Origin: Oscillospiraceae bacterium
Lineage (GTDB): Bacteria > Bacillota > Clostridia > Oscillospirales > Oscillospiraceae
Assembly: GCA_022801715.1 (NCBI GenBank)
Contig: JAAWSV010000009.1
Coordinates: 292-64,291, forward strand
Length of the DNA: 64,000 nt
Reading direction: 5' to 3'
The position numbers were made by a program, and so were the translations under genes. Under the pieces are notes generated by a model. It saw nothing but the letters and a program-made list of their open reading frames with translations. It searched no databases and was not told where the DNA came from. The stretch's first letter is position 1; every line of letters begins with the position of its first letter. Shown piece by piece: positions 38,655 through 54,912 of the stretch.

Positions 38655-40076
38655 ATGTACCGCCTGCCCTTGACCCTGCGCAGTGGTGATGGTGCGCCGC
38701 TGTATGAACAGCTCTATTCCAGCATCCTCGGCCAGATCCGCGCCGGGGAGCTGCCCGCCGGGACCCGTCTGCCGGGAAAGCGGTCATTGTCCCAGCAGCT
38801 CTCTGTGGGGGTGAATACGGTGGACACCGCCTACCAGATGCTGGTGGCGGAGGGCTATTTGGAGGCACGGCCCCGCAGCGGCTTCTTCGTGCTGGAGACG
38901 GTGGAGACCGTGGCGCCGGGAGGGGCGGCGGCGGTGTCCATCCCTGAGGAGGCGTCCCCTCCCCCCTGCCGGTTTGATCTGTCCACTGGGTCGGTGGACA
39001 CGGAGCTCTTCCCCTTCCGCACTTGGGGGCGAATCCAGAAGGAGCTGCTCTACGATGCGCCGGAGCTTCTGAGCCACGGACCCCGGCAGGGAGAACGGGT
39101 CTTACGGCAGGCGGTGGGGGAGTATTTGGCCACCTACCGGGGGGTGGTGTGCAGCCCGGAACAGATTGTGGTGGGGGCGGGAACGGAGTACCTGCTGGGT
39201 CTGGTGGCCCATCTGCTCCAAGGGCAGACGGCGGCGGTGGAGAATCCGGGGTACCAGAGACTGTCCACCATCCTGCAGAATAACGGCGTGGTCTGCCGCT
39301 TTGTGGACATCGACAGCGCCGGCCTCAGCCTGGAGGCCTTGGAGCGGAGCGGGGCGGAGCTGTGCTGTGTCACCCCCAGCCACCACTTCCCTACCGCTGT
39401 CACCATGCCCGCCGGCCGGCGAAGCCAGCTTCTCCGCTGGGCGCGGGAGCGGCCAGGGCGGTACATCATCGAGGATGACTATGACGCAGAGTTTCGCTTT
39501 GACACCCGTCCCCTGCCCAGCTTGCAGGGCATGGGGGGACAGCTGGGGCCGGTGATTTACCTCTCCACCTTTTCCAAGAGTTTGGCGCCCAGCATCCGTG
39601 TTGCCTGTATGGTGCTGCCGCCGGAGCTGTTAGAGCGGTACCGGGAGACCTACGGCAGCTACGCCAACACCGTGAGCCGCTTTGAGCAGCAGACCCTGTA
39701 CCGCTTCATGGAGGGCGGATACTTTACCCGCCACCTCTCCCGGATGCGCAGCGCCTACAAGGCCCGGATGGAGCGGCTTTGTGAGGCCCTCAGCACCACC
39801 TTGGGGCCGGAGAATATCCACCTGCAGGGCCGTCACACAGGGCTTCACCTGCTGCTGACGCTGAAAACCGGCCTCAGTGAGGAGGAGATGGTGCGCCGGG
39901 CCGGCGAGGCCGGGGTGGGGCTGCAGGGGCTCAGTGCCTATTACATGGAGCACCGGTCAACCTGCCCGGCGAGTACGGTAATCTTAGGGTATGCGGCCCT
40001 CCGGGACGCCGACATCCCGCCGCTGGCCGGCGTGCTGCGGGAGGCGTGGCAGAGGCGGGATGTCGGCTCCCGCTGA
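38655..40076 (+). CDS. MocR/GabR/PdxR-family PLP-dependent transcriptional regulator
   Basis: 473 aa. GntR-type wHTH (LPGKRSLSQQLSVGVNTVDTAYQMLVAEGYL) fused to a fold-type I aminotransferase-like domain (YLSTFSKSLAPSIRVA with the PLP lysine). Confidence 0.9.
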   Translation: MYRLPLTLRSGDGAPLYEQLYSSILGQIRAGELPAGTRLPGKRSLSQQLSVGVNTVDTAYQMLVAEGYLEARPRSGFFVLETVETVAPGGAAAVSIPEEASPPPCRFDLSTGSVDTELFPFRTWGRIQKELLYDAPELLSHGPRQGERVLRQAVGEYLATYRGVVCSPEQIVVGAGTEYLLGLVAHLLQGQTAAVENPGYQRLSTILQNNGVVCRFVDIDSAGLSLEALERSGAELCCVTPSHHFPTAVTMPAGRRSQLLRWARERPGRYIIEDDYDAEFRFDTRPLPSLQGMGGQLGPVIYLSTFSKSLAPSIRVACMVLPPELLERYRETYGSYANTVSRFEQQTLYRFMEGGYFTRHLSRMRSAYKARMERLCEALSTTLGPENIHLQGRHTGLHLLLTLKTGLSEEEMVRRAGEAGVGLQGLSAYYMEHRSTCPASTVILGYAALRDADIPPLAGVLREAWQRRDVGSR

Positions 40077-40176
40077 GGGGAGTGCTTCGGTGAAAAAAAC
40101 CATTGCATGGCGGGGCGGGAGCTGATAAAATAGAAAAACCACGAAAAACAGCGAAAAATCCGCCGGAGGTGTTGCT

Positions 40177-40671
40177 ATGCAGCGTATCAGCAAGGAAAAC
40201 TACTACTTGGACATTGCCCAGACTGTCATTGAGCGGGCCACCTGCCTGCGGCGGTGCTATGGGGCGATTATTGTCAAAAATGATGAGATCATCTCTACCG
40301 GCTACAACGGCGCCCCCCGAGGCCGGCGGAACTGCGTGGACTTGGGTTACTGCACCAGAGCCGCGCTGAAAATCCCCTCCGGACAGCGGTATGAGCTGTG
40401 CCGCAGTGTCCACGCCGAGGCCAACGCCATCATCTCCGCCGCCCGGCGGGACATGGTGGGGGGTACGCTGTACTTGGCCGGGAAGGACGCTGCCACCGGG
40501 GAGGTGCTGGGGGACGCCACCTCCTGCTCCATGTGCCGGCGTCTGATTATCAACGCGGGCCTTGAGAAAGTGGTGATCCGCAACACGCCCACCGAGTACA
40601 GCGTGGTGGATGTGAAGCGGGACTGGGTAGACGAGGACGACACCCTTCCCGAGACGCTGGGGGAGGCGTAA
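40177..40671 (+). CDS. dCMP deaminase (ComEB-like)
   Basis: 164 aa. Zinc motifs HAEANAI and CSMCRRLIINAG, plus NYYLDIAQTVIERATC. Confidence 0.88.
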   Translation: MQRISKENYYLDIAQTVIERATCLRRCYGAIIVKNDEIISTGYNGAPRGRRNCVDLGYCTRAALKIPSGQRYELCRSVHAEANAIISAARRDMVGGTLYLAGKDAATGEVLGDATSCSMCRRLIINAGLEKVVIRNTPTEYSVVDVKRDWVDEDDTLPETLGEA

Positions 40672-40719
40672 GGCCCTTTTCCGCCTCCTTGGCACACCAA
40701 TAGCAGACCATCACCATAA

Positions 40720-40758
40720 AATGGGGTGTGGCAGAGTGATTCTCTGCCGCACCCCATT
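40720..40758 (+). terminator. 17-bp hairpin after the dCMP deaminase gene
   Basis: AATGGGGTGTGGCAGAG tgatt CTCTGCCGCACCCCATT (one G-T pair). The T-tract is weak. Confidence 0.55.
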
Positions 40759-40782
40759 CTGCTTGACGTGAAGGAGCTGTCT

Positions 40783-41814
40783 ATGAAACGTTATCAAGCT
40801 ACTGATTGGGAGCAGTACTGCCGGAGCTGCTGTCCTCCGCCCTGCCCCCCGGGGCCGCCGCCCTGTCCTCCCGGGCCGCCGCCCCGCCCGCCTCATCCGC
40901 CGCGGCCGCCCCATCCGGTACCGCCCATGCCGCCCCGTCCGGGTGTGATGGGCCCCACAGGCCCCACCGGTCCGACCGGCCCCACTGGCCCTGCCGGTGC
41001 GGGGCTGGACAGTGTGGCCCCCTTTGTTCCCGGTGCCTACTACGCCATGGGGGATCTTGTCTACTATGACGGCAGTCTCTACCGCGCCAACCGCAATGGC
41101 GCGGCAGGGGTCCCCGGTACTTCCCCGGATTTTGATTTGGTGACTGTGACAGGGCCCCAAGGCCCCACCGGGCCTATGGGTCCCATGGGCCCGGCCGGCG
41201 CCACCGGTGCGACTGGTGCCCCGGGTGCCACAGGTGCAACAGGTGCGGTGGGCCCCACCGGTCCTGTCGGCCCTGCTGGTGCTGCCGGCGCTACCGGCCC
41301 CGCCGGTGCGATAGGCCCCACCGGCCCTGCTGGTGCGGCTGGTCCCGCTGGTGCAGAAGGTCCTACTGGCCCCGCCGGTCCTGCTGGTGCGGCAGGCCCC
41401 GCTGGTGCGGAGGGCCCCACCGGCCCCGCCGGCCCTGCTGGTGTAGCAGGCCCCGCCGGTGCGGAGGGCCCCACCGGCCCCGCTGGCCCTGCTGGTGCAG
41501 CAGGCCCCGCCGGTGCGGAGGGCCCCACCGGCCCCGCCGGCCCTGCTGGTGCGACTGGCCCCGCCGGCGCAGAGGGTCCTACCGGTCCCGCCGGCCCTGC
41601 TGGTGCGGCAGGCCCCGCTGGCGCGGAGGGTCCTACCGGCCCCGCTGGCCCTGCTGGCCCTATTGGCCCCACCGGTCCTACTGGGCCTGCCGGTACCATC
41701 ACACCGGGACCCGCTATAGCGGACTTGGAGCCTTCCGCAGACCTGGGCGCCATCGTGACGGAGATCAATCAGCTCTTAGCTGCTCTCCGGGCTGCTGGCA
41801 TTATTGCAACCTGA
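40783..41814 (+). CDS. Collagen-like triple-helix repeat protein with Cys/Pro-rich N-terminus
   Basis: In-frame ATG 40783 after [37 protein letters not shown], a short G-X-Y run (40942-41004), a ~50-aa aromatic-rich globular insert ([21 protein letters not shown]), about 60 uninterrupted G-X-Y triplets (41152-41694) and a 39-aa C-terminal tail. Confidence 0.85.
41341..41664 (+). repeat. Tandem 54-bp repeat (about 6 units) inside the collagen-like gene
   Basis: Unit encodes [18 protein letters not shown]. Units start at 41341, 41395, 41449, 41503, 41557 and 41611 and differ only by synonymous or near-synonymous changes. Confidence 0.85.
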
Positions 41815-41847
41815 TCCCACCTAACAGGCTTAGCCTGTCGGAAAGCT

Positions 41848-41880
41848 GGGGGACCGCCACAGAGCGGTCCCCCGCTTTTC
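41848..41880 (+). terminator. Intrinsic terminator of the collagen-like gene
   Basis: GGGGGACCGC cacaga GCGGTCCCCC followed by GCTTTTCC. Confidence 0.75.
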
Positions 41881-41900
41881 CCTATAGAAAGGAGTGTCGT

Positions 41901-42986
41901 ATGACAAAACCTCGCATCTGCGTCTATGCCATTGCCAAAAATGAGGAGCAGTTTGTGGATCGCTGGATGGATGCCATGTCCGAGGCGGACCACATTGTTG
42001 TACTGGACACCGGCTCCAGCGATGCCACTGTGGAGCACCTGCGCCGCCGGGGAGCGGAGGTGACAGTGGAGGAGATCGTCCCTTGGCGCTTTGATACCGC
42101 CCGAAACCGCTCCTTGGAACTGGTGCCCCAAGAGATGGATCTCTGTGTCTGCACCGACTTGGACGAGGTGTTTCACCCCGGCTGGCGGGCCGCGATAGAT
42201 GGGGCTTGGGACAGCGGTGTCAGCCAGATGAGCTACCGCTACACTTGGAGTTTTACCGAAGACGGCCGGGAGGGCGTGGTATTCTGGCCGGAGAAGATCC
42301 ACAGCCGCCAGGGCTGGCGGTGGGTCCACCCGGTCCATGAGGTGCTCCAGTGGGTGGGACCGGGGACGCCGGGGCGCAAGGTCGCCGTCCAAGGTGTCCA
42401 GCTGGACCATCACCCGGACCCCAGCAAATCCCGCGGGCAGTATTTGCCGCTGCTGGAACTCTCTGTGGCCGAGGATCCGGAGGATGACCGGAATCTGCAC
42501 TACTTGGGCCGGGAATACCTCTACTACGGCCAGTACGACCGGTGCATCGAGACGCTGCAGCGGCATCTGAGCCTGCCCAAGGCCCGCTGGGCTGATGAGC
42601 GGGCCGCCTCCATGCGCTACATCGCCCGGGCCCTGACGGAGAAGGGGGAGCGGAGAGCCGCCCGGGGCTGGTACCTCCGGGCGGTGGCTGAGGCCCCCCA
42701 CCTGCGGGAACCCTACATAGACTTGGCCATGCTTCTCTATCAGGAGGAGGCTTGGGAGGGGGTGCTGTATTTTACCGATTGCGCCCTGTCCCTGCGGGAG
42801 CGGCCCGGCAGCTATATCTGTGAGGCGGCGGCGTGGGGAAGCCTGCCCTATGATCTGCAGGCGATGGCGTTTTGGCATACCGGGAGAACGCGGGAGGCCC
42901 TTCAAGCGGCGGAGGCGGCGCTGGAACTGGAACCGGGAAATGAAAGGCTGCGGGCAAATGTGGAGGTAATCAGGGAAAAGGTATAG
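41901..42986 (+). CDS. Glycosyltransferase (GT2-like N-terminal domain) with TPR-like C-terminal repeats
   Basis: 361 aa. ICVYAIAKNEEQFVDRWMDAMSEADHIVVLDTGSSD and CTDLDEVF (DxD-like). The C-terminal half is helical-repeat-like (HYLGREYLYYGQYDRCIETLQRHL, AMAFWHTGRTREALQAAEAALELEPGN). Confidence 0.7.
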   Translation: MTKPRICVYAIAKNEEQFVDRWMDAMSEADHIVVLDTGSSDATVEHLRRRGAEVTVEEIVPWRFDTARNRSLELVPQEMDLCVCTDLDEVFHPGWRAAIDGAWDSGVSQMSYRYTWSFTEDGREGVVFWPEKIHSRQGWRWVHPVHEVLQWVGPGTPGRKVAVQGVQLDHHPDPSKSRGQYLPLLELSVAEDPEDDRNLHYLGREYLYYGQYDRCIETLQRHLSLPKARWADERAASMRYIARALTEKGERRAARGWYLRAVAEAPHLREPYIDLAMLLYQEEAWEGVLYFTDCALSLRERPGSYICEAAAWGSLPYDLQAMAFWHTGRTREALQAAEAALELEPGNERLRANVEVIREKV

Positions 42987-48626: not shown

Positions 48627-49733
48627 TCAGTCCTCGGCCACATTCTCGCAGAAGCGCATCAAAATCGTAGCCACTTGGGCGCGGGTAGCCCGGCCGGTGG
48701 GGCTGATGGTGCCGTCGTCCATGCCGGAGATCAGCCCCGTGCCGACGGCCCAGCGGATGGGCTCCACGGCGTAGTCGTTCACCATGGCGGCATCGCGGAA
48801 GCCGTCGAGACTCCCGCGGGCGCTGGTGTCATAGCCCTTGCTCTCCGCGTAGCGGTACAGGATAGCCGCCAGCTGCTGCCGGGTGATGGGGTCCTCCGGG
48901 CCGAAGCCGCCGGTGTCGTAGCCGTTGACCAGCCCTTGGGCGCTGGCCCAGGCGATGGGGGCGGCGTAGTAGAGGCTCTGATCCACGTCGGGGAAGACCT
49001 TGCTCCCCCCGGCGGGGTTCCCCTCCAAGCGGTGGAGGATGGTGACGATCATCCCCCGCGTGGTGGGGGTATTGGGGGAGAAGCTGTCGCCGGTGGTGCC
49101 GGACATCATGCGGTTGGCGTAGACGAACTGCACGGCGGTGTAGTACCAGTCGCCTCTGCCGGCGTCCGAGAAGGGCAGCACGACATCGGTGTAATCAGGC
49201 TTTTCCTCCGGCTTGTCGTCCTTGTCATTCTTGTCGTCCTTATCGTCCTTTCCGCCGCTGGGACGGCTGCCGCCGGAGCCGCTGCTCCCGCCGCTGGAGG
49301 CGGCGCGCAGGGTGACGGTGGCGTCCGCGGAGACGTTGAGGCCCCGATCCAGCAGCTTCAGCTCCCCGGAGGAGGGGAGGGACGCGCCGCCCAAATTCAG
49401 GGTGCCAAGGGACAGGGAGGCGCCGATGTTCATGGGGGTGTCCGCGGTGAGATAGATGGTGATCTTCGTACTGCCGCCGCTCTCCTCCACCGTGCAGCCG
49501 GGGCTGTACACATCCTTCCCGGCGGGCGTGAAGGAGGGATTGGGGCAGCTTCCGGGGACGGTGACTGTCAGCTGGGCGCCATAGACACCGCCGTTGACCC
49601 CGCTGACAGAGAGGCTGGCGCCGCCGCTGCCGTTGCGGTAGGTGACGGAGGGGGCGGAGGCCCCCCATGCCGCCGGAGCGGCACAGGAGAGCACCGTCAG
49701 AATGGACAGGAGGGTGCAGAGAGTCCTTCTCAT
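48627..49733 (-). CDS. Cell-wall anchored protein: signal peptide, beta-sandwich (possibly cohesin-like) module, K/D-rich linker, three SLH repeats
   Basis: In-frame ATG 49733 inside ORF 48627..49790. Signal MRRTLCTLLSILTVLSCAAPAAWG. C-terminal SLH repeats (FSDAGRGDWYYTAVQFVYANRMMSG, FPDVDQSLYYAAPIAWASAQGLVNG, FRDAAMVNDYAVEPIRWAVGTGLISG). Its start overlaps the upstream stop as ATGA. Confidence 0.8.
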   Translation of the reverse strand: MRRTLCTLLSILTVLSCAAPAAWGASAPSVTYRNGSGGASLSVSGVNGGVYGAQLTVTVPGSCPNPSFTPAGKDVYSPGCTVEESGGSTKITIYLTADTPMNIGASLSLGTLNLGGASLPSSGELKLLDRGLNVSADATVTLRAASSGGSSGSGGSRPSGGKDDKDDKNDKDDKPEEKPDYTDVVLPFSDAGRGDWYYTAVQFVYANRMMSGTTGDSFSPNTPTTRGMIVTILHRLEGNPAGGSKVFPDVDQSLYYAAPIAWASAQGLVNGYDTGGFGPEDPITRQQLAAILYRYAESKGYDTSARGSLDGFRDAAMVNDYAVEPIRWAVGTGLISGMDDGTISPTGRATRAQVATILMRFCENVAED

Positions 49734-52700
49734 ACCTCGCCCTCCAACACGATGGTGGGCAGGGCGTCGCCGCCGGGGGTGGTCAGCCACATGGTCTCCG
49801 CCGTCTTGCGCTTGCTGCTGGCGTCATTTGGCTTGTCGGTGCGGTAGAACTCCAGCATCATTTGGCCGGGCAGCAAACTCTCCGCGCCGCAGTTGCTGAC
49901 GCCTTGGAGTGCCTCCTCGGCCTTCAGGTTGGGTACAAAGATGAAGATACCGTTGCTGATATCGCTGACCTCACCGTCGGCAGGCAGCTCCGCGAAGAGG
50001 TAGCAGTCGCCGGAGAGCGCCCGCTCCACCACTTGGTTCTCGCCCTTCTCATCGGGGGCGGTGGCAAAGCGGCCCTTCACCTCCACAAAGTTGTACAGCG
50101 GGTCGCCCCGATAGGTGCCGGTGATCACAATCGTGTCAGCGGCGATCTTCTCGCCGTCTCCCAAGTCGTAGTCCGCGTCCAAGCGGCCCACCGCGCCGTC
50201 GGCCATGAAGGCCACGTCGTCTCCGGCGTAGCTGATGGGCAGTACCGTGACACCCTCACCCACGCCGGTGATCACGATAGTCTTGGCGTCATAGGTCCAG
50301 ATGCGGCTGTCCTCCGCGGCGGTCTCGGGCTTGTTGAAGTAGAGGAGGTAGCAGTCCATATCGTCACGGGCCTCGTTCAGGGCCGGATCGAAGGTGCTGT
50401 CCTTGGCCACAGTCTCCTTGTCCTTGCCGTCGGTGATGGTGACAGTATAAGCCCCACCCTCCGCCACCGCTCCGGTGAGCTTCAAACCGGAGACGGCGGT
50501 CTCATTGTGCAGGGTGATGGTCACGGTATCACCCTCCCGGGTGCTGCTGTAGGTGCTGGAATCCAGCACCGCATCATAGGCGATACGGATACTGCCGGCA
50601 CCCACTTGGGTGCTCTCGCCCACCGTCAGCGCCGTACCCAAGGTGCTGTAGGCCACCACCGCATAGTTAAACACCCGGTGGTTGGCGGAGCCGATCAGGT
50701 CGGTGTAGACGGCGCTCTTGCTGCCACTCTCAGGCACCACAAAGTCGATGCTCTGGCCGTTGCGCAGAATCTCATAGCCCTGGAGGCTGCCGGTAAGGCC
50801 GCTGCCGTCGATGGTCAGCGTCACCTTATTGGTCGTGCCTGCTGTCAGAGCCGCGGAGGCGGTAAAGCTGCCGGAGAGCGTCCCGGTCCCTGCCAAGCGG
50901 TCCCGGCGGCTCTGGTCGCTGAGGTACCAGACCGCCCGGTCCTCCTTGTCATAGGAGGCCAGCTGATCCTTCGTTTGGGGGCTGAGGGCCATACCCCAGC
51001 GGGTGAAGAACTCGGTCAGGTCCTTCCCGGCCACACCGGCGGCGGTGAGAGCCACTTTGTCATCATAGCTGGAACCCATATCCTTGGTGTAGGTCCCGGC
51101 CTTCCAAGCCTTGAAGAAGCGGTTGTAGAAGTCCATGGGCTTCTCGCCGCTGTCGTAGGCCAAGTGGAGCTGCCAGTACATGCCCAGCTGGGTGAACACG
51201 TCGCCGGAGGTGCCGAGGGTGGCCTGCGCGGTCTTGGTGAAGATGCTGGGGTACTTATTGCTCTTCTCCAAGCGGGAGGACAGGGTGTTCTGCTTCCCGT
51301 CGAAGGTCTGAACCATAATGGAGTAGATGTTGTTGGTGATCTCCGCCTTGCCCAGCTTATCCATGTTGTGCCCGATCTCATGGGCGATACCCCAGCCAAA
51401 GAGGTTGTTGGCGGTGGCCCCGGCGGGCAGGTCCTTGATGGGCGTACCGCCTACCATACCGGAGCAGGAGCCGAAGCCGATGCCGATGTGGCTCCCGGCG
51501 GCGTACATGAACGCACCGGTAAACATCTGCATGCACCGGATATTCTGCCGGGTCTCCATATCGTTCTTCTCATAGGTGTTGTCGATGCCCTGCGTGGTCT
51601 TGCAGATGTGCAGCAGGTCCTCCCAAGCCAGCACGGAGTTGGTCAGCTGACGGACCTTTCCATCGGTGTCCGCGTTGCCGAGGCCCGCCAGCGCGGCGGA
51701 GGCCGGGAGGGAGAGGAGCACCGTGGGTGTGGCGATCTCGGTGACATTCTGCCAGTTGGTCTGGGCTGTAGAGGCGTTGGCGGCGGGGGTGTAGGCCGTC
51801 AGCTCCTCCACATAGGCCCGGATGGCATCACTGCGCTGGGTCTCCGTCATGGTGTACCAGTCGGACAGATCCAGCAGGGGGATATCCGTGGCCCGGCGGA
51901 CATGGAGGGAGATGTCCTCAGGACCGCTCCCGCTGTAGGTCACATACAGACTGCCGCCTCGGGGGGTGTCCTGGCTGCCGATCTTGGGGACGGTAAACAC
52001 ATTCCGTCCGTTCTGAATCTCCCCCACCTTGGCCAGCCATGTGTTGGCCTCGGCGTTGTACTGGCTGGCATGGAGCGTGACTGTCTCCCCCTCCGGAATG
52101 CCGGCGGCGTAGATGGTAACCTCGCTGAGGGCCCCGGCGGCGGCGCCAATGGGCTGGAGGACGCTTCCGCCCTGGCTGTACTTGGCGCTGTCGCTGCCGC
52201 CGTCACGGGAGTCGATGCCGGTGAGGAGGATCTTGTGGGTCTCCTTCTTCAGCAGGGACTCCGCCAAAGCCAGCTCGTCATCGAGCATAGCGGTGCGCAG
52301 ATAGTACTTGCCCTCTTCGCTGTTCAGGCGTGTCCGCAGCGCGTCAATCGTCTCCTGTGTAACACCGGAGACCAGCTCCGTGTGGAGGCCGTCCTGACCG
52401 CCCACAAACAAGGCGTCAATATCGGCGGGCAGGCTGTGGGCCGGGTCGTACTCCATAAACAGCAGCTCCGAGAGGCTGACGGTTTCGTAGTCGTACTGCT
52501 CCACAGCGATGCTGACCTTCACCACATTCTCCACCGGCCCAAAGGGCAGCACGGCGAAGCGGTCCGCGGCGCAGGAGCTGTAGTTAGCCACATTGGGCCA
52601 AGTGTCCACGTCCCGGCCGGTGCCGCCGTTGTCCACACCGCCCTTCTCCGGATCGGGGACAATCAGATGGCCCGCGCTGTTCAGCTCCTCCCCCTCATAC

Positions 52701-54685
52701 CAGATGCGGACGCTGTAGGCCCGGAGGTATCTGGGATAGTTCCCCTCCAGACGGGGCACCCAGAAGGCGGCGGTGAGGTCCACCGGCTCTTTGAAGGTGG
52801 TGACTACATGCTCATTCCGGCTCCAGTTGGAGCTGGCAGTCCAGTGGGTGGTGTAGTCATCATCCCACATATTCTTGCTGTTCCAAGGCCGGCTGGCGGA
52901 GTAGGAGGCGGAGTCATAATTGCCTTTATCCACCAGCTCCATGCTGGCAATCTTGTCATAGCTGAGGAGGCCGGCCTCCGGAATTCCCTCAGGCCGCTTG
53001 TCCTCCATGCCCTTGGGAGTGCCCTCGGCAATGCGGGACTTGCCGCTCTCGCCCAAGGCATTCCCGGCGATGATGTAGATCGAGTAGGTGGTGTCGTTTG
53101 TCAGATCGTTGATGGTGATGCCGGTCCCGGTGAGGGTTCCGCCGGCCTGAGTCCAAGTGGAGGCACCCTTCACCTGATAGAACACCTTGTAGTACGTGGC
53201 GTTTTCGCTCTTCTTCCAAGAGACGGTGAGGGCGCTGTCCAGCACGCCCACATTCACCATATCCGGGGCGGCGGGAACCTTCGCCGGCTGGGGCACAGCG
53301 TACACCGGCTGGGAGGCCTTCCCCGTCCAGCTGCCGTCGGTGGGAGTAACGGTGAAGGCGTACTCGATCAAATTCTCCAGCCCGGTTACCGTGGCGCTGT
53401 TCACTGTGGTGCGCAGCTCCTTAACCTTGGAGCTGTCGCTCTGGGGCCAGTAGTGGACGGTGTAGCCGGACACATTGGGCAGAGTCTGCCAAGTGAGTGC
53501 CACCTGCTCATGGCCCGCCTTGGCGGCAAGGCCCTTGATGGTGCTGTTGGGGGGTGTGGGATTTTCGGGGACGATATCCTTGAGGAAGCGGATTGTCTCC
53601 ACCGTGGCATATTCGTCGCCGGTCTTGATCACGGTAATAGTGACCTTCTTCACCGCCACCCGCTTTCCCAAGTTGATGGTGACAACGCTGCTCCCCGCCA
53701 TACGGCCTACAGCGTGAATGCCCGCAGGCAGGGTGTGGTCAAAGGGAACCTCAATGGTCTCGCCGCTCTGGGTCTCCACGGTGATAGTGCCCTTCTCCAC
53801 CTCGCCGCTGCCCACAGGGGTGACGATCTCCAGCTCGCTGACCTCCACGGGATTGGTCAGCACCAGCGGGATCACAATATTGCTGTCATTCTCCGAGGTA
53901 AAGGTGACGGCGTTGCCCTCCTCGGTGAAGAGGTTGTTCAGCTCACCGCTCGCGGTAGTCTTGGCCGCCTTTAAGGCTGCCTCGGTGTCATCTGCCTTTA
54001 CCGGATTGCCCAGCAACGCCGTCTCCAAATACTCCGCATCGCCCTGGGCCTTCAGCTGACGGTTGATATAGCTGAGGTCGATGATGTCTACCTTGCCGTC
54101 GCCATTGAGGTCACACTGGGCGATGTCCGCCTTATTGGAGGTGCCAAGGGCGGCGGAGATCTTCGCGCGGTCGGCCTCCGTGACCTGTTTGTCGCCGTCC
54201 ACATCACCCAAGGTGAAGGTGGCGTCGCCGGTGCCCACCGTCACCTGCCGGGCGTAGTCCTGCACCTCGATGGTGCCGGTGGTATAGGGCTTATACCCTG
54301 TGCCCTCGAAGGTCAGGGTGTAGCTCCCTTGGGGCAGGCCGCCAAAGGTCACATCCAGATAGCCGGGCCATTTCCCGCCGTCCAGAGGCGCCCCCTCGCC
54401 GTTGCGCAGGGAGACCACGGCGGTATAGCCGCCGGACAGCGTGGTGGCGGTTTCCTTGGTCAAAGCCACGAAGCCCAAGGAGGACCCGCCGTCCTTTTTC
54501 AGCACCGCCCGCAAATCCCGCCGGGCCAGCTCGTCCAAGGTCTGGGCGTAGTCGATCCGCACCGTGGCGGAGATACTGCCGGTGACGGCGGGTGCGTCCT
54601 CCGCCGCGGCCGTCACCGGCAGCAGGGAGGCCAGCATCACCGCCGCAAGCAGCAGCGATAGAAGGCGGACACGCACATGTTTCAT
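49730..54685 (-). CDS. Secreted 1651-aa multidomain protein: dockerin, Fn3 repeats, discoidin/CBM-like module, M60-like zinc peptidase
   Basis: Signal MKHVRVRLLSLLLAAVMLASLLPVTAAAE. Dockerin duplication GDVDGDKQVTEADRAKISAAL / CDLNGDGKVDIIDLSYINRQL (nt 54056-54215). Fn3-like segments (VALTWQTLPNVSGYTVHYW, LTVSWKKSENATYYKVFYQ). Zincin motif WGIAHEIGHNMD (HEIGH at 51368-51382) in an M60/enhancin-like context. Confidence 0.85.
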   Translation of the reverse strand: MKHVRVRLLSLLLAAVMLASLLPVTAAAEDAPAVTGSISATVRIDYAQTLDELARRDLRAVLKKDGGSSLGFVALTKETATTLSGGYTAVVSLRNGEGAPLDGGKWPGYLDVTFGGLPQGSYTLTFEGTGYKPYTTGTIEVQDYARQVTVGTGDATFTLGDVDGDKQVTEADRAKISAALGTSNKADIAQCDLNGDGKVDIIDLSYINRQLKAQGDAEYLETALLGNPVKADDTEAALKAAKTTASGELNNLFTEEGNAVTFTSENDSNIVIPLVLTNPVEVSELEIVTPVGSGEVEKGTITVETQSGETIEVPFDHTLPAGIHAVGRMAGSSVVTINLGKRVAVKKVTITVIKTGDEYATVETIRFLKDIVPENPTPPNSTIKGLAAKAGHEQVALTWQTLPNVSGYTVHYWPQSDSSKVKELRTTVNSATVTGLENLIEYAFTVTPTDGSWTGKASQPVYAVPQPAKVPAAPDMVNVGVLDSALTVSWKKSENATYYKVFYQVKGASTWTQAGGTLTGTGITINDLTNDTTYSIYIIAGNALGESGKSRIAEGTPKGMEDKRPEGIPEAGLLSYDKIASMELVDKGNYDSASYSASRPWNSKNMWDDDYTTHWTASSNWSRNEHVVTTFKEPVDLTAAFWVPRLEGNYPRYLRAYSVRIWYEGEELNSAGHLIVPDPEKGGVDNGGTGRDVDTWPNVANYSSCAADRFAVLPFGPVENVVKVSIAVEQYDYETVSLSELLFMEYDPAHSLPADIDALFVGGQDGLHTELVSGVTQETIDALRTRLNSEEGKYYLRTAMLDDELALAESLLKKETHKILLTGIDSRDGGSDSAKYSQGGSVLQPIGAAAGALSEVTIYAAGIPEGETVTLHASQYNAEANTWLAKVGEIQNGRNVFTVPKIGSQDTPRGGSLYVTYSGSGPEDISLHVRRATDIPLLDLSDWYTMTETQRSDAIRAYVEELTAYTPAANASTAQTNWQNVTEIATPTVLLSLPASAALAGLGNADTDGKVRQLTNSVLAWEDLLHICKTTQGIDNTYEKNDMETRQNIRCMQMFTGAFMYAAGSHIGIGFGSCSGMVGGTPIKDLPAGATANNLFGWGIAHEIGHNMDKLGKAEITNNIYSIMVQTFDGKQNTLSSRLEKSNKYPSIFTKTAQATLGTSGDVFTQLGMYWQLHLAYDSGEKPMDFYNRFFKAWKAGTYTKDMGSSYDDKVALTAAGVAGKDLTEFFTRWGMALSPQTKDQLASYDKEDRAVWYLSDQSRRDRLAGTGTLSGSFTASAALTAGTTNKVTLTIDGSGLTGSLQGYEILRNGQSIDFVVPESGSKSAVYTDLIGSANHRVFNYAVVAYSTLGTALTVGESTQVGAGSIRIAYDAVLDSSTYSSTREGDTVTITLHNETAVSGLKLTGAVAEGGAYTVTITDGKDKETVAKDSTFDPALNEARDDMDCYLLYFNKPETAAEDSRIWTYDAKTIVITGVGEGVTVLPISYAGDDVAFMADGAVGRLDADYDLGDGEKIAADTIVITGTYRGDPLYNFVEVKGRFATAPDEKGENQVVERALSGDCYLFAELPADGEVSDISNGIFIFVPNLKAEEALQGVSNCGAESLLPGQMMLEFYRTDKPNDASSKRKTAETMWLTTPGGDALPTIVLEGEV

Positions 54686-54750: not shown

Positions 54751-54779
54751 ATTATAACAATTATGTCAACCGCTGTCAA
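54751..54779 (-). promoter_or_regulatory. Full-consensus extended -10 sigma-A promoter of the M60-like gene
   Basis: Minus strand TTGACA (54774-79), a 17-nt spacer ending TGt, TATAAT (54751-56). It lies about 65 nt upstream of ATG 54685. Confidence 0.75.
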
Positions 54780-54867: not shown

Positions 54868-54903
54868 AGCAAAAGAGGGCCGGTCCTGCGGAACCGGCCC
54901 TCT
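54868..54903 (-). terminator. Intrinsic terminator of pyrE
   Basis: Minus strand AGAGGGCCGGT tccgcagg ACCGGCCCTCT followed by TTTTGC. Confidence 0.8.
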
Positions 54904-54912
54904 CTGCTGATT

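What the first reader, a model, noticed from the sequence alone, without database searches (positions are those of the whole stretch)
48627..54685. Putative cohesin-dockerin surface display of an M60-like (mucinase-type) peptidase, translationally coupled to an SLH anchor
The 1651-aa secreted protein has a canonical duplicated dockerin near its N-terminus. Both Ca-loop patterns are D-x-D/N-x-D-x-x-x-x-x-x-D (GDVDGDKQVTEAD..., DLNGDGKVDIID...; nt 54056-54215). It also has an M60/enhancin-like zincin domain (HEIGH at 51368-51382). Its stop overlaps the start of the next gene (ATGA, 49730-49733). That gene encodes a signal peptide, a ~125-aa beta-rich module, a K/D-rich linker and three C-terminal SLH repeats. 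The beta-rich module reads SLSVSGVNGGVYGAQLTVTVPG...TKITIYLTADTPMNIGASLSLGTLNLGG...ATVTL, and its strand pattern resembles cohesins. Dockerin plus a neighbouring SLH-anchored putative cohesin implies a cellulosome-style tether. Here the cargo is a glycoprotein/mucin-type protease rather than a glycoside hydrolase. M60-like domains are associated with mucin degradation in host-associated microbes. The cohesin assignment is my inference from the sequence pattern only.
Basis: partly seen in the sequence, partly recalled or inferred. Interest (0 to 1): 0.7.

Follow-up and report, generated by a model that had tools for sequence, protein, structure and literature searches.

The report
Dockerin-tagged mucinase with dedicated surface anchor
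A gut Oscillospiraceae bacterium has a conserved two-gene operon: a large secreted M60-type (mucin-cutting) protease with a dockerin tag, followed by a cell-wall-anchored protein whose unannotated, cohesin-like module probably holds the enzyme on the cell surface.

Summary
ORF 49730-54685(-) encodes a 1651-aa secreted protein with Dockerin_1, two fn3 domains and Peptidase_M60 with an intact HEIGH motif. Its closest solved relatives are the C. perfringens ZmpB/ZmpC O-glycopeptidases. Its stop overlaps (ATGA) the start of a 368-aa protein made of a signal peptide, a ~120-aa beta module, a K/D linker and three SLH repeats.

The cohesin call is only partly borne out. No Pfam, PDB-sequence or profile-profile test links the module to cohesins. 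An MSA-based AlphaFold model (pLDDT 92.5) is a nine-strand beta-sandwich. Its best PDB neighbours are mostly cohesins, but weakly (E 1e-3 to 4e-2, TM 0.36-0.43).

Comparative genomics gives the strongest evidence:
- The dockerin is present in 69 of 69 related metagenome loci that include the M60 N-terminus.
- The module gene is the next gene in 71 of 72 loci with room, usually overlapping or within 50 nt.
- All 7 look-ups that started from the module found an M60 gene upstream.
- The module is kept while the anchor changes (SLH, or a C-terminal TM helix).

Best reading: a minimal, dedicated dockerin/receptor surface tether. It is a new variant of a known principle, and binding is untested.

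The parts
54751..54779 (-). Promoter-like site TTGACA-17 nt-TATAAT, 12 of 12 matches with an extended TG, about 66 nt upstream of the M60 ATG. It follows a GC-rich hairpin plus T-run read by eye just after pyrE (about 54870-54905), which the terminator scan did not list.
49730..54685 (-). Gene 1: a 1651-aa secreted dockerin-bearing M60-like metallopeptidase. Public annotation is 'hypothetical protein', MCI9587061.1, Oscillospiraceae MAG.
54602..54685 (-). Signal peptide, aa 1-28: MKHVRVRLLSLLLAAVMLASLLPVTAAA.
   Evidence: Read from the translation. Conserved in orthologues. No signal-peptide predictor was run.
54236..54601 (-). N-terminal beta module (aa ~29-150) directly before the dockerin. 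It gives a weak CarboxypepD_reg-like hit at aa 113-143, the same weak family flagged on CipA alongside its C-terminal dockerin.
   Evidence: Resemblance only, not tested further.
54053..54211 (-). Dockerin (aa 159-211) with two F-hand Ca loops, DVDGDKQVTEAD and DLNGDGKVDIID.
   Evidence: Pfam 34.0 bits, above the 22.9 cut-off. PDB dockerin hits include C. perfringens NagH 2jnk/2ozn at E 0.003, R. flavefaciens 5lxv_B and CelS 1daq. Present in 69 of 69 related loci.
53021..53533 (-). Two fibronectin type III domains (aa ~385-555).
   Evidence: fn3, 53.2 bits, 2 stretches
52451..52909 (-). F5/8 type C (CBM32-like) region, aa ~593-745. It scores below the Pfam threshold.
   Evidence: 21 bits, cut-off 28.2. 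The alignment to ZmpB 7jfs starts at aa 694.
50726..52246 (-). M60-like catalytic region (aa ~814-1320), homologous to C. perfringens ZmpB/ZmpC O-glycopeptidases.
   Evidence: 7jfs 5.7e-25, 6xsz 1.2e-24, 5kdj 8e-24. (Peptidase_M60, 69.8 bits).
51368..51382 (-). Zinc-binding motif HEIGH (aa 1102-1106), followed by E1115 in the conserved GKAEITNN segment.
   Evidence: aligned with HELGHNFD...VEVTNN of ZmpB
49733..50725 (-). C-terminal ~330 aa of unknown fold, conserved in all relatives up to the stop codon.
49730..49733 (-). ATGA stop/start overlap between gene 1 and gene 2. The RBS-like GGAGGG lies at 49741-49746.
   Evidence: The same -4 overlap occurs in 17 related loci and a -1 overlap in 8.
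48627..49733 (-). Gene 2: a 368-aa surface-anchor protein. Public annotation is 'S-layer homology domain-containing protein', MCI9587060.1.
49662..49733 (-). Signal peptide of gene 2, aa 1-24: MRRTLCTLLSILTVLSCAAPAAWG.
   Evidence: Read from the translation.
49302..49661 (-). Unannotated ~120-aa nine-strand beta-sandwich module (aa 25-144), the putative dockerin receptor ('cohesin-like').
   Evidence: Family of ~78 representatives. AF2 pLDDT 92.5. Foldseek top hits are cohesins at TM 0.36-0.43. No sequence link to cohesins.
49164..49301 (-). G/S-rich then K/D-rich linker, aa ~145-190.
   Evidence: Read from the translation.
48630..49163 (-). Three SLH repeats (aa ~191-368), a non-covalent cell-wall anchor.
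   Evidence: SLH, 102.7 bits, 3 stretches

Best explanation
The region is a self-contained bicistronic operon of a gut Oscillospiraceae bacterium.

Gene 1 encodes a secreted, multi-domain M60-like zinc metallopeptidase. It is probably an O-glycopeptidase or mucinase like C. perfringens ZmpB/ZmpC. It carries a canonical Ca-binding dockerin near its N-terminus.

Gene 2 is translationally coupled to gene 1. It encodes a surface anchor made of a signal peptide, a ~120-aa nine-strand beta-sandwich module, a flexible linker and three SLH repeats that bind the cell-wall polymer.

The proposed mechanism is that the beta-sandwich module acts as the dedicated receptor for the dockerin. It would be functionally a single-cohesin anchoring scaffoldin of the SdbA/OlpA type. 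Each enzyme molecule would then be held non-covalently on the cell surface at roughly 1:1 stoichiometry, keeping glycoprotein degradation products close to the cell.

Shown here: the domain identities, the operon structure, the fold class of the module, and the near-absolute co-inheritance of dockerin and module.

Inferred: that the module binds the dockerin, that binding is Ca-dependent, that the substrate is mucin-type glycoprotein, and that the module descends from cohesins rather than only resembling them.
For: 1. Domain calls are above curated thresholds: Dockerin_1, fn3, Peptidase_M60 and SLH x3. ZmpB/ZmpC are the best solved relatives, with HEXXH and the downstream Glu aligned.
2. Operon structure: a perfect sigma-70 consensus promoter lies upstream of gene 1, the two genes overlap as ATGA, and an RBS sits inside gene 1.
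3. The module forms a coherent family. It is always N-terminal after a signal peptide in 340-450-aa proteins.
4. The MSA-based AF2 model has pLDDT 92.5 and nine strands. Thirteen of the top 35 Foldseek PDB hits are cohesins, with estimated probability 0.94-1.00: A. fulgidus 2xdh; C. perfringens 2vo8, 2jh2, 2w1n, 2o4e; C. acetobutylicum 6kgc/6kgf; 4fl4, 3ghp, 2bm3.
5. In 80 metagenome loci found with the M60 protein (34-60% identity), the dockerin is present in 69 of 69 with the N-terminus. The module gene is the next gene in 71 of 72 with room. Gaps run from -14 to +48 nt in nearly all.
6. In the reverse direction, 7 of 7 look-ups starting from module proteins find an M60-family gene upstream. 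Two show Dockerin_1 + fn3 + Peptidase_M60 in full.
7. The anchor is interchangeable while the module is kept. Most loci have SLH x3, and human-gut loci L064/L065/L067 have a C-terminal TM helix. In L075 a different beta-rich module, with only a weak match to the family motif, sits in the same position and ends in a sortase-like AAKTGD + TM tail. This is what one expects if the module is the cargo-binding part.
8. No second dockerin or module occurs in the 64-kb window or in up to 10 kb of flank at each locus. This points to a dedicated pair.
9. The architecture (signal peptide, receptor, linker, SLH x3) matches known SLH-anchored scaffoldins. That comparison rests on established knowledge of C. 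thermocellum SdbA/OlpA/OlpB.
Against: - There is no sequence evidence that the module is a cohesin. Pfam Cohesin is absent at E<=10 in 69 family members and at E<=1 for the window protein. The PDB profile search found nothing at E<=10. hhalign gives probability 0.1% against type I/II cohesins, against 65% for the type I versus type II control.
- The structural similarity is marginal. No Foldseek hit reaches E<=1e-3, TM is 0.36-0.43 and rmsd 6-8 A. CBM2, YcnI, integrin and p53 beta-sandwiches score similarly.
- A mirror-tree test found no dockerin-module co-evolution beyond the control: partial r 0.10 versus 0.28 for dockerin-SLH.
- No complex prediction or binding assay was possible.
- The rest of the genome could not be surveyed for canonical cohesins.
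- The dockerin is N-proximal rather than C-terminal, which is less usual.
Confidence: 0.6

Rival explanations
1. The SLH protein is a co-expressed accessory but not the dockerin receptor. Its module might bind substrate glycans, the cell wall or another surface component, like a small CBM. The dockerin would bind a canonical cohesin encoded elsewhere in the genome, or have no protein partner.
For: The module shows no sequence similarity to any cohesin. Foldseek scores a CBM2 (6qfs) as high as the cohesins, with TMq 0.43 and TMt 0.51. No dockerin-module co-evolution signal rose above the control. Many non-cellulosomal dockerins have no known partner (general knowledge).
Against: - Dockerin and module are co-inherited in 69 of 69 and 71 of 72 loci, with translational coupling.
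- The module is retained while the anchor is swapped.
- No other dockerin or cohesin-like ORF is in the window or flanks.
- Reading the family alignment, the module has no conserved Trp; the exposed aromatic platform typical of CBM2 is general knowledge.
- The proteins are otherwise only linker plus anchor, with no other candidate function.
Confidence: 0.2
2. The module does tether the M60 enzyme to the surface, but it binds a part other than the dockerin. Candidates are the highly conserved C-terminal ~330 aa or the N-terminal beta module. The dockerin would serve as a Ca-dependent stabiliser, or bind a third partner.
For: The C-terminal region is conserved to the very last residues in all relatives. 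The gene pairing by itself does not say which part of gene 1 is bound. The mirror-tree test does not single out the dockerin.
Against: The dockerin is the only domain of gene 1 with a known protein-docking function. It is invariably present with both Ca loops intact. The module's nearest structural neighbours are dockerin receptors.
Confidence: 0.12
3. The adjacency has no functional meaning: two unrelated surface or secreted proteins happen to be neighbours.
For: None beyond the lack of a direct interaction test.
Against: The pair is conserved across 34-60% identity relatives in about 70 loci with different flanking genes, with overlapping or nearly abutting reading frames. The pairing is also found in the reverse direction in 7 of 7 look-ups.
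Confidence: 0.02

Closest known systems
SLH-anchored single-cohesin anchoring scaffoldins of Acetivibrio (Clostridium) thermocellum (SdbA, OlpA; also OlpB/Orf2p) with their dockerin-bearing partners
   Same: The architecture is the same: signal peptide, N-terminal receptor module, linker, three C-terminal SLH repeats. The partner carries a two-F-hand dockerin. The result is non-covalent display on the cell wall. A weak CarboxypepD_reg-like beta module sits directly before the dockerin here, and the same weak family is flagged on CipA alongside its C-terminal dockerin.
   Different: - The receptor module has no detectable sequence similarity to type I or type II cohesins and is shorter (~120 aa versus ~140-165 aa).
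- The cargo is one protease, not a scaffoldin or a glycoside hydrolase.
- Receptor and cargo are encoded as a dedicated 1:1 translationally coupled pair.
- The dockerin is N-proximal.
Clostridium perfringens cohesin (X82)-dockerin toxin/glycosidase complexes (NagH-NagJ etc.; PDB 2ozn, 2jh2, 2vo8, 2w1n) and its M60-like O-glycopeptidases ZmpA/B/C
   Same: This is a host-glycan or mucin-targeting enzyme in a non-cellulolytic Firmicute that uses a dockerin. C. perfringens cohesins are among the best structural matches to the module. The NagH dockerin is among the best PDB matches to this dockerin. ZmpB/ZmpC are the closest solved relatives of the catalytic region.
   Different: In C. perfringens, the five cohesin-containing proteins described in PMC12997984 all carry a glycoside hydrolase domain; they are not SLH anchors. 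No dockerin was seen in the solved Zmp chains matched here. Here the M60 enzyme itself carries the dockerin, and the receptor is a non-catalytic wall anchor.
Limousia 'mucinolysome' (Akresi et al., Gut Microbes 2026, PMC12997984; bioRxiv 2025)
   Same: It is a cohesin-dockerin-type organisation of mucin-degrading enzymes, including dockerin-bearing peptidases, on the surface of gut Clostridia.
   Different: The mucinolysome is a multi-enzyme system. It has Pfam-detectable cohesins, multi-cohesin scaffoldins, up to 22 Doc-CAZymes and an LPXTG anchor. It was found by requiring Pfam Coh + Doc. The system here has a single pair, an SLH (or TM) anchor and a receptor invisible to the Pfam Cohesin model, so that screen would have missed it. 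M60 and SLH are not mentioned in that paper's main text.
M60-like/PF13402 domain architectures catalogued by Nakjang et al. 2012 (PMC3267712)
   Same: That survey already lists PF13402 together with Dockerin type 1 (2 proteins) and with SLH (1 protein), as well as with CBM32 and fn3.
   Different: No partner protein, operon or receptor module was described, and the co-occurrence was only tabulated.

Membership tests
Dockerin (Pfam PF00404 Dockerin_1) | Profile match above the curated threshold | tested here: met
   34.0 bits against a cut-off of 22.9, aa 159-211, profile positions 1-56 of 57. PDB dockerins are matched.
Dockerin (Pfam PF00404 Dockerin_1) | Two tandem F-hand Ca-binding loops (D-x-[DN]-x-D ... 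D at position 12), each followed by a helix | tested here: met
   DVDGDKQVTEAD and DLNGDGKVDIID. Both are conserved in 56 non-redundant dockerin-module pairs, including the window's own.
Dockerin (Pfam PF00404 Dockerin_1) | Ca-dependent binding to a cohesin partner | not testable with these tools
Peptidase M60-like / O-glycopeptidase (PF13402; ZmpB/ZmpC type) | Profile match above the curated threshold, and homology to solved members | tested here: met
   69.8 bits against a cut-off of 25.8. 7jfs, 6xsz and 5kdj match at E about 1e-24 over aa ~700-1320.
Peptidase M60-like / O-glycopeptidase (PF13402; ZmpB/ZmpC type) | HEXXH zinc motif with a downstream Glu ligand | tested here: met
   HEIGHNMDKLGKAE aligns with HELGHNFDTGGRTIVE of ZmpB. 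It is invariant in the three aligned orthologues.
Peptidase M60-like / O-glycopeptidase (PF13402; ZmpB/ZmpC type) | O-glycan-dependent cleavage of mucin-type glycoproteins | not testable with these tools
   Needs an enzymatic assay.
Cohesin (Pfam PF00963) | Sequence or profile match to the cohesin family | tested here: not met
   - No Pfam Cohesin hit at E<=1 for the window protein, nor at E<=10 for 59 family members and 10 divergent members.
- No PDB hit for the single sequence or the 59-sequence profile at E<=10.
- hhalign probability 0.05-0.1% against C. thermocellum type I/II cohesins, with a type I versus type II control at 65% and E 6e-5.
- Caveat: the cohesin profiles were narrow, and type III (Ruminococcus) cohesins were not tested.
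Cohesin (Pfam PF00963) | Nine-stranded beta-sandwich (jelly-roll) fold | tested here: inconclusive
   The AF2 model (pLDDT 92.5) has nine strands. Cohesins are 13 of the top 35 Foldseek PDB hits, with probability 0.94-1.00. But E is 1e-3 to 4e-2, TM 0.36-0.43 and rmsd 6-8 A, and other beta-sandwiches score similarly.
Cohesin (Pfam PF00963) | Binds a dockerin | not testable with these tools
   Only indirect support: dockerin and module are co-inherited in 69 of 69 and 71 of 72 loci. The mirror-tree test was uninformative.
SLH-anchored surface protein | Three SLH repeats above the Pfam threshold, with a signal peptide | tested here: met
   SLH 102.7 bits, 3 stretches. The signal peptide was read from the sequence.
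Cellulosome / mucinolysome (multi-enzyme complex) | Scaffoldin with several cohesins and several dockerin-bearing enzymes | tested here: not met
   There is one dockerin and one module in the 64-kb window, and one of each in the ±10-kb flanks of about 80 loci. The whole genome was not surveyed.

The most novel reading that the evidence does not exclude
The ~120-aa module is a previously unrecognised class of dockerin receptor. It could be a fourth, extremely divergent cohesin type, or an independently evolved beta-sandwich that binds dockerins. It defines a minimal 'one enzyme, one anchor' display cassette, widespread in gut Oscillospiraceae, that all Pfam-based cohesin/dockerin surveys miss. 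That includes the screen that defined mucinolysomes.
Probability: 0.35. Interest if true: 0.7.

Novelty: new variant of a known kind. Interest (0 to 1): 0.55.

Why it matters
- **Surveys may undercount.** Cohesin-dockerin systems outside plant-fibre degradation are only now being recognised in gut bacteria. If this module is a dockerin receptor, current surveys, which require a Pfam Cohesin hit, undercount such systems.
- **Mucus-layer ecology.** A cell-bound O-glycopeptidase in abundant but poorly cultured Oscillospiraceae would bear on who attacks the mucus layer, and on how degradation products are kept private to the cell.
- **A possible tool.** A small (~120 aa) receptor with a ~55-aa tag, evolving as a dedicated 1:1 pair with many natural variants, could also serve as an orthogonal protein-display pair.
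- **Annotation.** Both genes are currently uninformative in public records ('hypothetical protein' and 'S-layer homology domain-containing protein').

Tried and rejected
1. Word-indexed homologue searches with the module, alone and as a profile, found only 1 hit each. The exhaustive search was needed.
2. Single-sequence AF2 of the module gave pLDDT 55 and was discarded.
3. PDB sequence searches with the module, as a single sequence and as a 59-sequence profile, found nothing at E<=10.
4. Pfam was run on 59 family members and on 10 divergent members taken from metagenome loci, to look for a bridging sequence that hits Cohesin. None did.
5. hhalign against cohesin profiles was negative. The profiles came from a CipA Coh2 search and from a C. 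thermocellum-like cipA/olpB contig. They are narrow; the last protein search returned only 11 close CipA relatives.
7. A mirror-tree / partial Mantel test for dockerin-module co-evolution gave partial r 0.10, below the dockerin-SLH control of 0.28. It is uninformative because everything shares one phylogeny. Residue-level covariation was not pursued: there are about 42 non-redundant pairs and strong clade structure, and two loci (L037, L038) look chimeric.
8. The idea that the N-terminal beta module plus dockerin is a type II 'X-Doc' was checked by PDB sequence search. Only the dockerin part matched, so this remains a resemblance.
9. The CBM2-like reading of the module was considered because of the 6qfs hit. 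It was ranked low because the module lacks conserved Trp and because of the genomic linkage.
10. Chance adjacency was rejected.

Full report
**1. What is in the sequence**

On the minus strand, ORF 49730-54685 encodes 1651 aa. It is followed by an ORF whose ATG at 49733 overlaps the upstream TGA as ATGA, giving 368 aa ending at 48627.

Pfam places these domains on the large protein:
- Dockerin_1 at aa 159-211 (34.0 bits, curated cut-off 22.9).
- Two fn3 stretches (53.2 bits).
- A sub-threshold F5/8 type C segment.
- Peptidase_M60 at aa 1042-1231 (69.8 bits, cut-off 25.8).

The best solved relatives are the C. perfringens O-glycopeptidases ZmpB and ZmpC (7jfs, 6xsz, 5kdj; E about 1e-24 over aa ~700-1320). 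HEIGH (aa 1102-1106, nt 51368-51382) and the downstream Glu are aligned in them.

The small protein has three SLH repeats (102.7 bits). The ~130 residues between its signal peptide and the K/D-rich linker match nothing.

A 12-of-12 sigma-70 consensus (TTGACA-17-TATAAT with TG) sits at 54779-54751. By eye, a GC-rich hairpin followed by a T-run lies just after the upstream pyrE gene. GGAGGG lies 8-13 nt before the second ATG. The two genes therefore form their own bicistronic operon, in a housekeeping neighbourhood of gyrB/gyrA, RNase J, pyrF/pyrE and a MacB-type exporter.

The exact proteins are in public records as 'hypothetical protein' and 'S-layer homology domain-containing protein' of an Oscillospiraceae MAG.

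**2. Is the module a cohesin?**

By sequence, no.
- The window protein has no Pfam hit in this region at E<=1.
- The module alone has no PDB sequence hit at E<=10.
- The exhaustive search of 1.84 billion representatives found 82 hits. About 78 form a coherent family; four are repeat proteins matched through a short stretch. In family members the module always sits directly after a signal peptide, mostly in 340-450-aa proteins.
- A 59-sequence alignment (A1) still finds nothing in the PDB.
- None of the 59 members, nor 10 further divergent members taken from metagenome loci, hits Pfam Cohesin even at E<=10.
- Profile-profile comparison with C. thermocellum type I and type II cohesins gives probability about 0.1%. 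The same narrow profiles recognise each other at 65%, E 6e-5.

By predicted structure, the answer is 'cohesin-like, weakly'. With the alignment, AlphaFold2 gives pLDDT 92.5 and nine beta strands. The single-sequence model was unreliable. Foldseek against the PDB finds no hit at E<=1e-3. Even so, 13 of the 35 best hits are cohesins, with Foldseek probability 0.94-1.00:
- A. fulgidus 2xdh.
- C. perfringens 2vo8, 2jh2, 2w1n, 2o4e.
- C. acetobutylicum 6kgc/6kgf.
- 4fl4, 3ghp, 2bm3.

TM-scores are only 0.36-0.43. A CBM2, YcnI, integrin and p53 domains score in the same range. I therefore do not file the module as a cohesin. It is an unannotated beta-sandwich family whose nearest solved neighbours are cohesins.

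**3. Comparative genomics**

This is the strongest evidence.

The close relative in GTDB genomes (L001, uncultured Clostridia MAG) has the same pyrE / M60 / SLH arrangement.

A metagenome scan with an alignment of three M60 orthologues returned 80 loci with full-length or partial relatives at 34-60% identity. Six-frame HMM searches on these loci gave the following:
- A two-loop dockerin in 69 of 69 loci that contain the N-terminus.
- The A1 module in the very next gene in 71 of 72 loci with at least 300 nt after the M60 stop.
- Gaps of -14 to +48 nt in almost all cases: 17 with the same 4-nt overlap and 8 with a 1-nt overlap.
- No second dockerin or module anywhere in the flanks or in the 64-kb window.

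The association also holds in reverse. Seven look-ups that started from module proteins all found an M60-family gene directly upstream. These were P0007, P0005, P0010, P0040, P0079, P0071 and P0046, at 32-45% identity to the window module. In two of them the complete Dockerin_1 + fn3 + Peptidase_M60 protein is present with overlapping reading frames.

The anchor varies while the module stays:
- Most partners end in three SLH repeats, often with an extra Flg_new_2 domain.
- Human-gut loci L064/L065/L067 replace SLH with a long linker and a C-terminal transmembrane helix.
- In the single exception, L075, the next gene encodes a signal peptide, a different beta-rich module, a weak FIVAR-like segment, and an AAKTGD motif followed by a hydrophobic tail, which looks sortase-like. 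That module has only a weak match to the family's core motif.

A constant cargo-side tag, a constant N-terminal module and an exchangeable wall or membrane anchor are what a dedicated tether would look like.

**4. Mechanism proposed**

Both proteins are exported by the Sec pathway. This is inferred from signal peptides read in the sequence. The SLH repeats would bind the secondary cell-wall polymer, which is established SLH function. The module would bind the dockerin of the M60 enzyme, probably in a Ca-dependent way. Translational coupling would give near-equimolar synthesis. The enzyme would then be displayed on a flexible linker at the cell surface, where fn3 spacers and a CBM32-like region present the M60 catalytic domain to O-glycosylated substrates.

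Shown: domains, operon structure, fold class and co-inheritance. Inferred: the binding itself, its Ca dependence and the substrate.

A mirror-tree test did not add support. The partial correlation of dockerin and module distances given the catalytic domain is 0.10, lower than the dockerin-SLH control at 0.28. The module is the fastest-evolving part, with mean pairwise distance 0.71, against 0.48 for the dockerin and 0.34 for the catalytic core.

**5. Relation to what is known**

Functionally the pair works like an SLH-anchored single-cohesin scaffoldin (SdbA/OlpA type) with a dockerin-bearing partner. In biological theme it resembles the C. perfringens cohesin-dockerin glycosidase complexes and the recently described Limousia 'mucinolysome' (PMC12997984).

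It differs in four ways:
- The receptor is not recognisable as a cohesin.
- It is a 1:1 dedicated operon rather than a multi-enzyme scaffold.
- The cargo is an M60-like peptidase.
- The anchor is SLH or a TM helix.

Nakjang et al. 2012 already tabulated two PF13402 + dockerin proteins and one PF13402 + SLH protein, without follow-up (PMC3267712). A full-text search for dockerin together with M60-like found only that paper.

**6. Verdict**

Its interpretation is partly supported: the tether idea is strongly supported by conservation, while the 'cohesin' label is not met by sequence and only weakly by fold.

I rate it a new variant of a known kind, with interest 0.55. My confidence that the module is the dockerin's receptor is about 0.6. 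The decisive tests are complex prediction for several natural pairs and an EDTA-sensitive binding assay.

Noticed in passing
window 54751-54779 (-): A perfect 12-of-12 sigma-70 consensus promoter, TTGACA-17-TATAAT with an extended TG, lies about 66 nt upstream of the M60 start. It directly follows a GC-rich hairpin plus T-run, read by eye after pyrE (about 54870-54905).
   Followed up: partly
window 56803-~59100 (-); L001 634-2928: A second, unrelated SLH protein of about 765 aa, starting MRQFMKRAAS.... SLH is at its N-terminus and the rest is a large beta-rich region with no Pfam hit. It lies two genes upstream (beyond pyrF/pyrE) and is syntenic in the close relative L001.
   Followed up: partly
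window 54236-54601 (-), aa ~29-150 of the M60 protein: A conserved beta module sits immediately before the dockerin and gives a weak CarboxypepD_reg hit. Pfam flags the same weak family on CipA alongside its C-terminal dockerin (L090). This may be an X-Doc-like dyad. A PDB sequence search matched only the dockerin part.
   Followed up: partly
L064 8494-9951, L065 5559-6890, L067 14921-16435 (human gut metagenome contigs): In these relatives the module protein has no SLH repeats. It carries a long Ser/Asn/Gln-rich linker, an unassigned ~200-aa domain and a C-terminal transmembrane helix followed by KRR. The second dockerin loop of the partner is degenerate (DITKDNQVDIED).
   Followed up: partly
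L075 4808-5743: This is the only locus without a recognisable A1 module. The next gene encodes a signal peptide, a different beta-rich module (GISTFSLSLMLEP...LNIYVAG...), a sub-threshold FIVAR hit, and a C-terminal AAKTGD motif followed by a hydrophobic tail, which looks sortase-like.
   Followed up: partly
L037 and L038: The dockerin belongs to one clade (as in L049 and L045) but the downstream module is identical to another clade (as in L028 and L029). This is either metagenome assembly chimerism inside the conserved M60 gene or natural recombination of the cassette.
   Followed up: no
Module family (A1); window aa 39 and 56 of the module (nt ~49545 and ~49494): Two cysteines (GSCPNP...SPGC) recur in many but not all family members. 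They may form a disulfide or a metal site in an extracellular protein of an anaerobe.
   Followed up: no
Homologues P0005, P0007, P0010, P0040, P0071 (L002-L009, L092-L093): Most family members carry an extra Flg_new_2 (PF18998) domain between the module and the SLH repeats. The window protein has only a short K/D-rich linker there.
   Followed up: no
window 40001-42000: There is a local GC maximum of 0.669, against about 0.60 for the neighbourhood. It was not examined.
   Followed up: no
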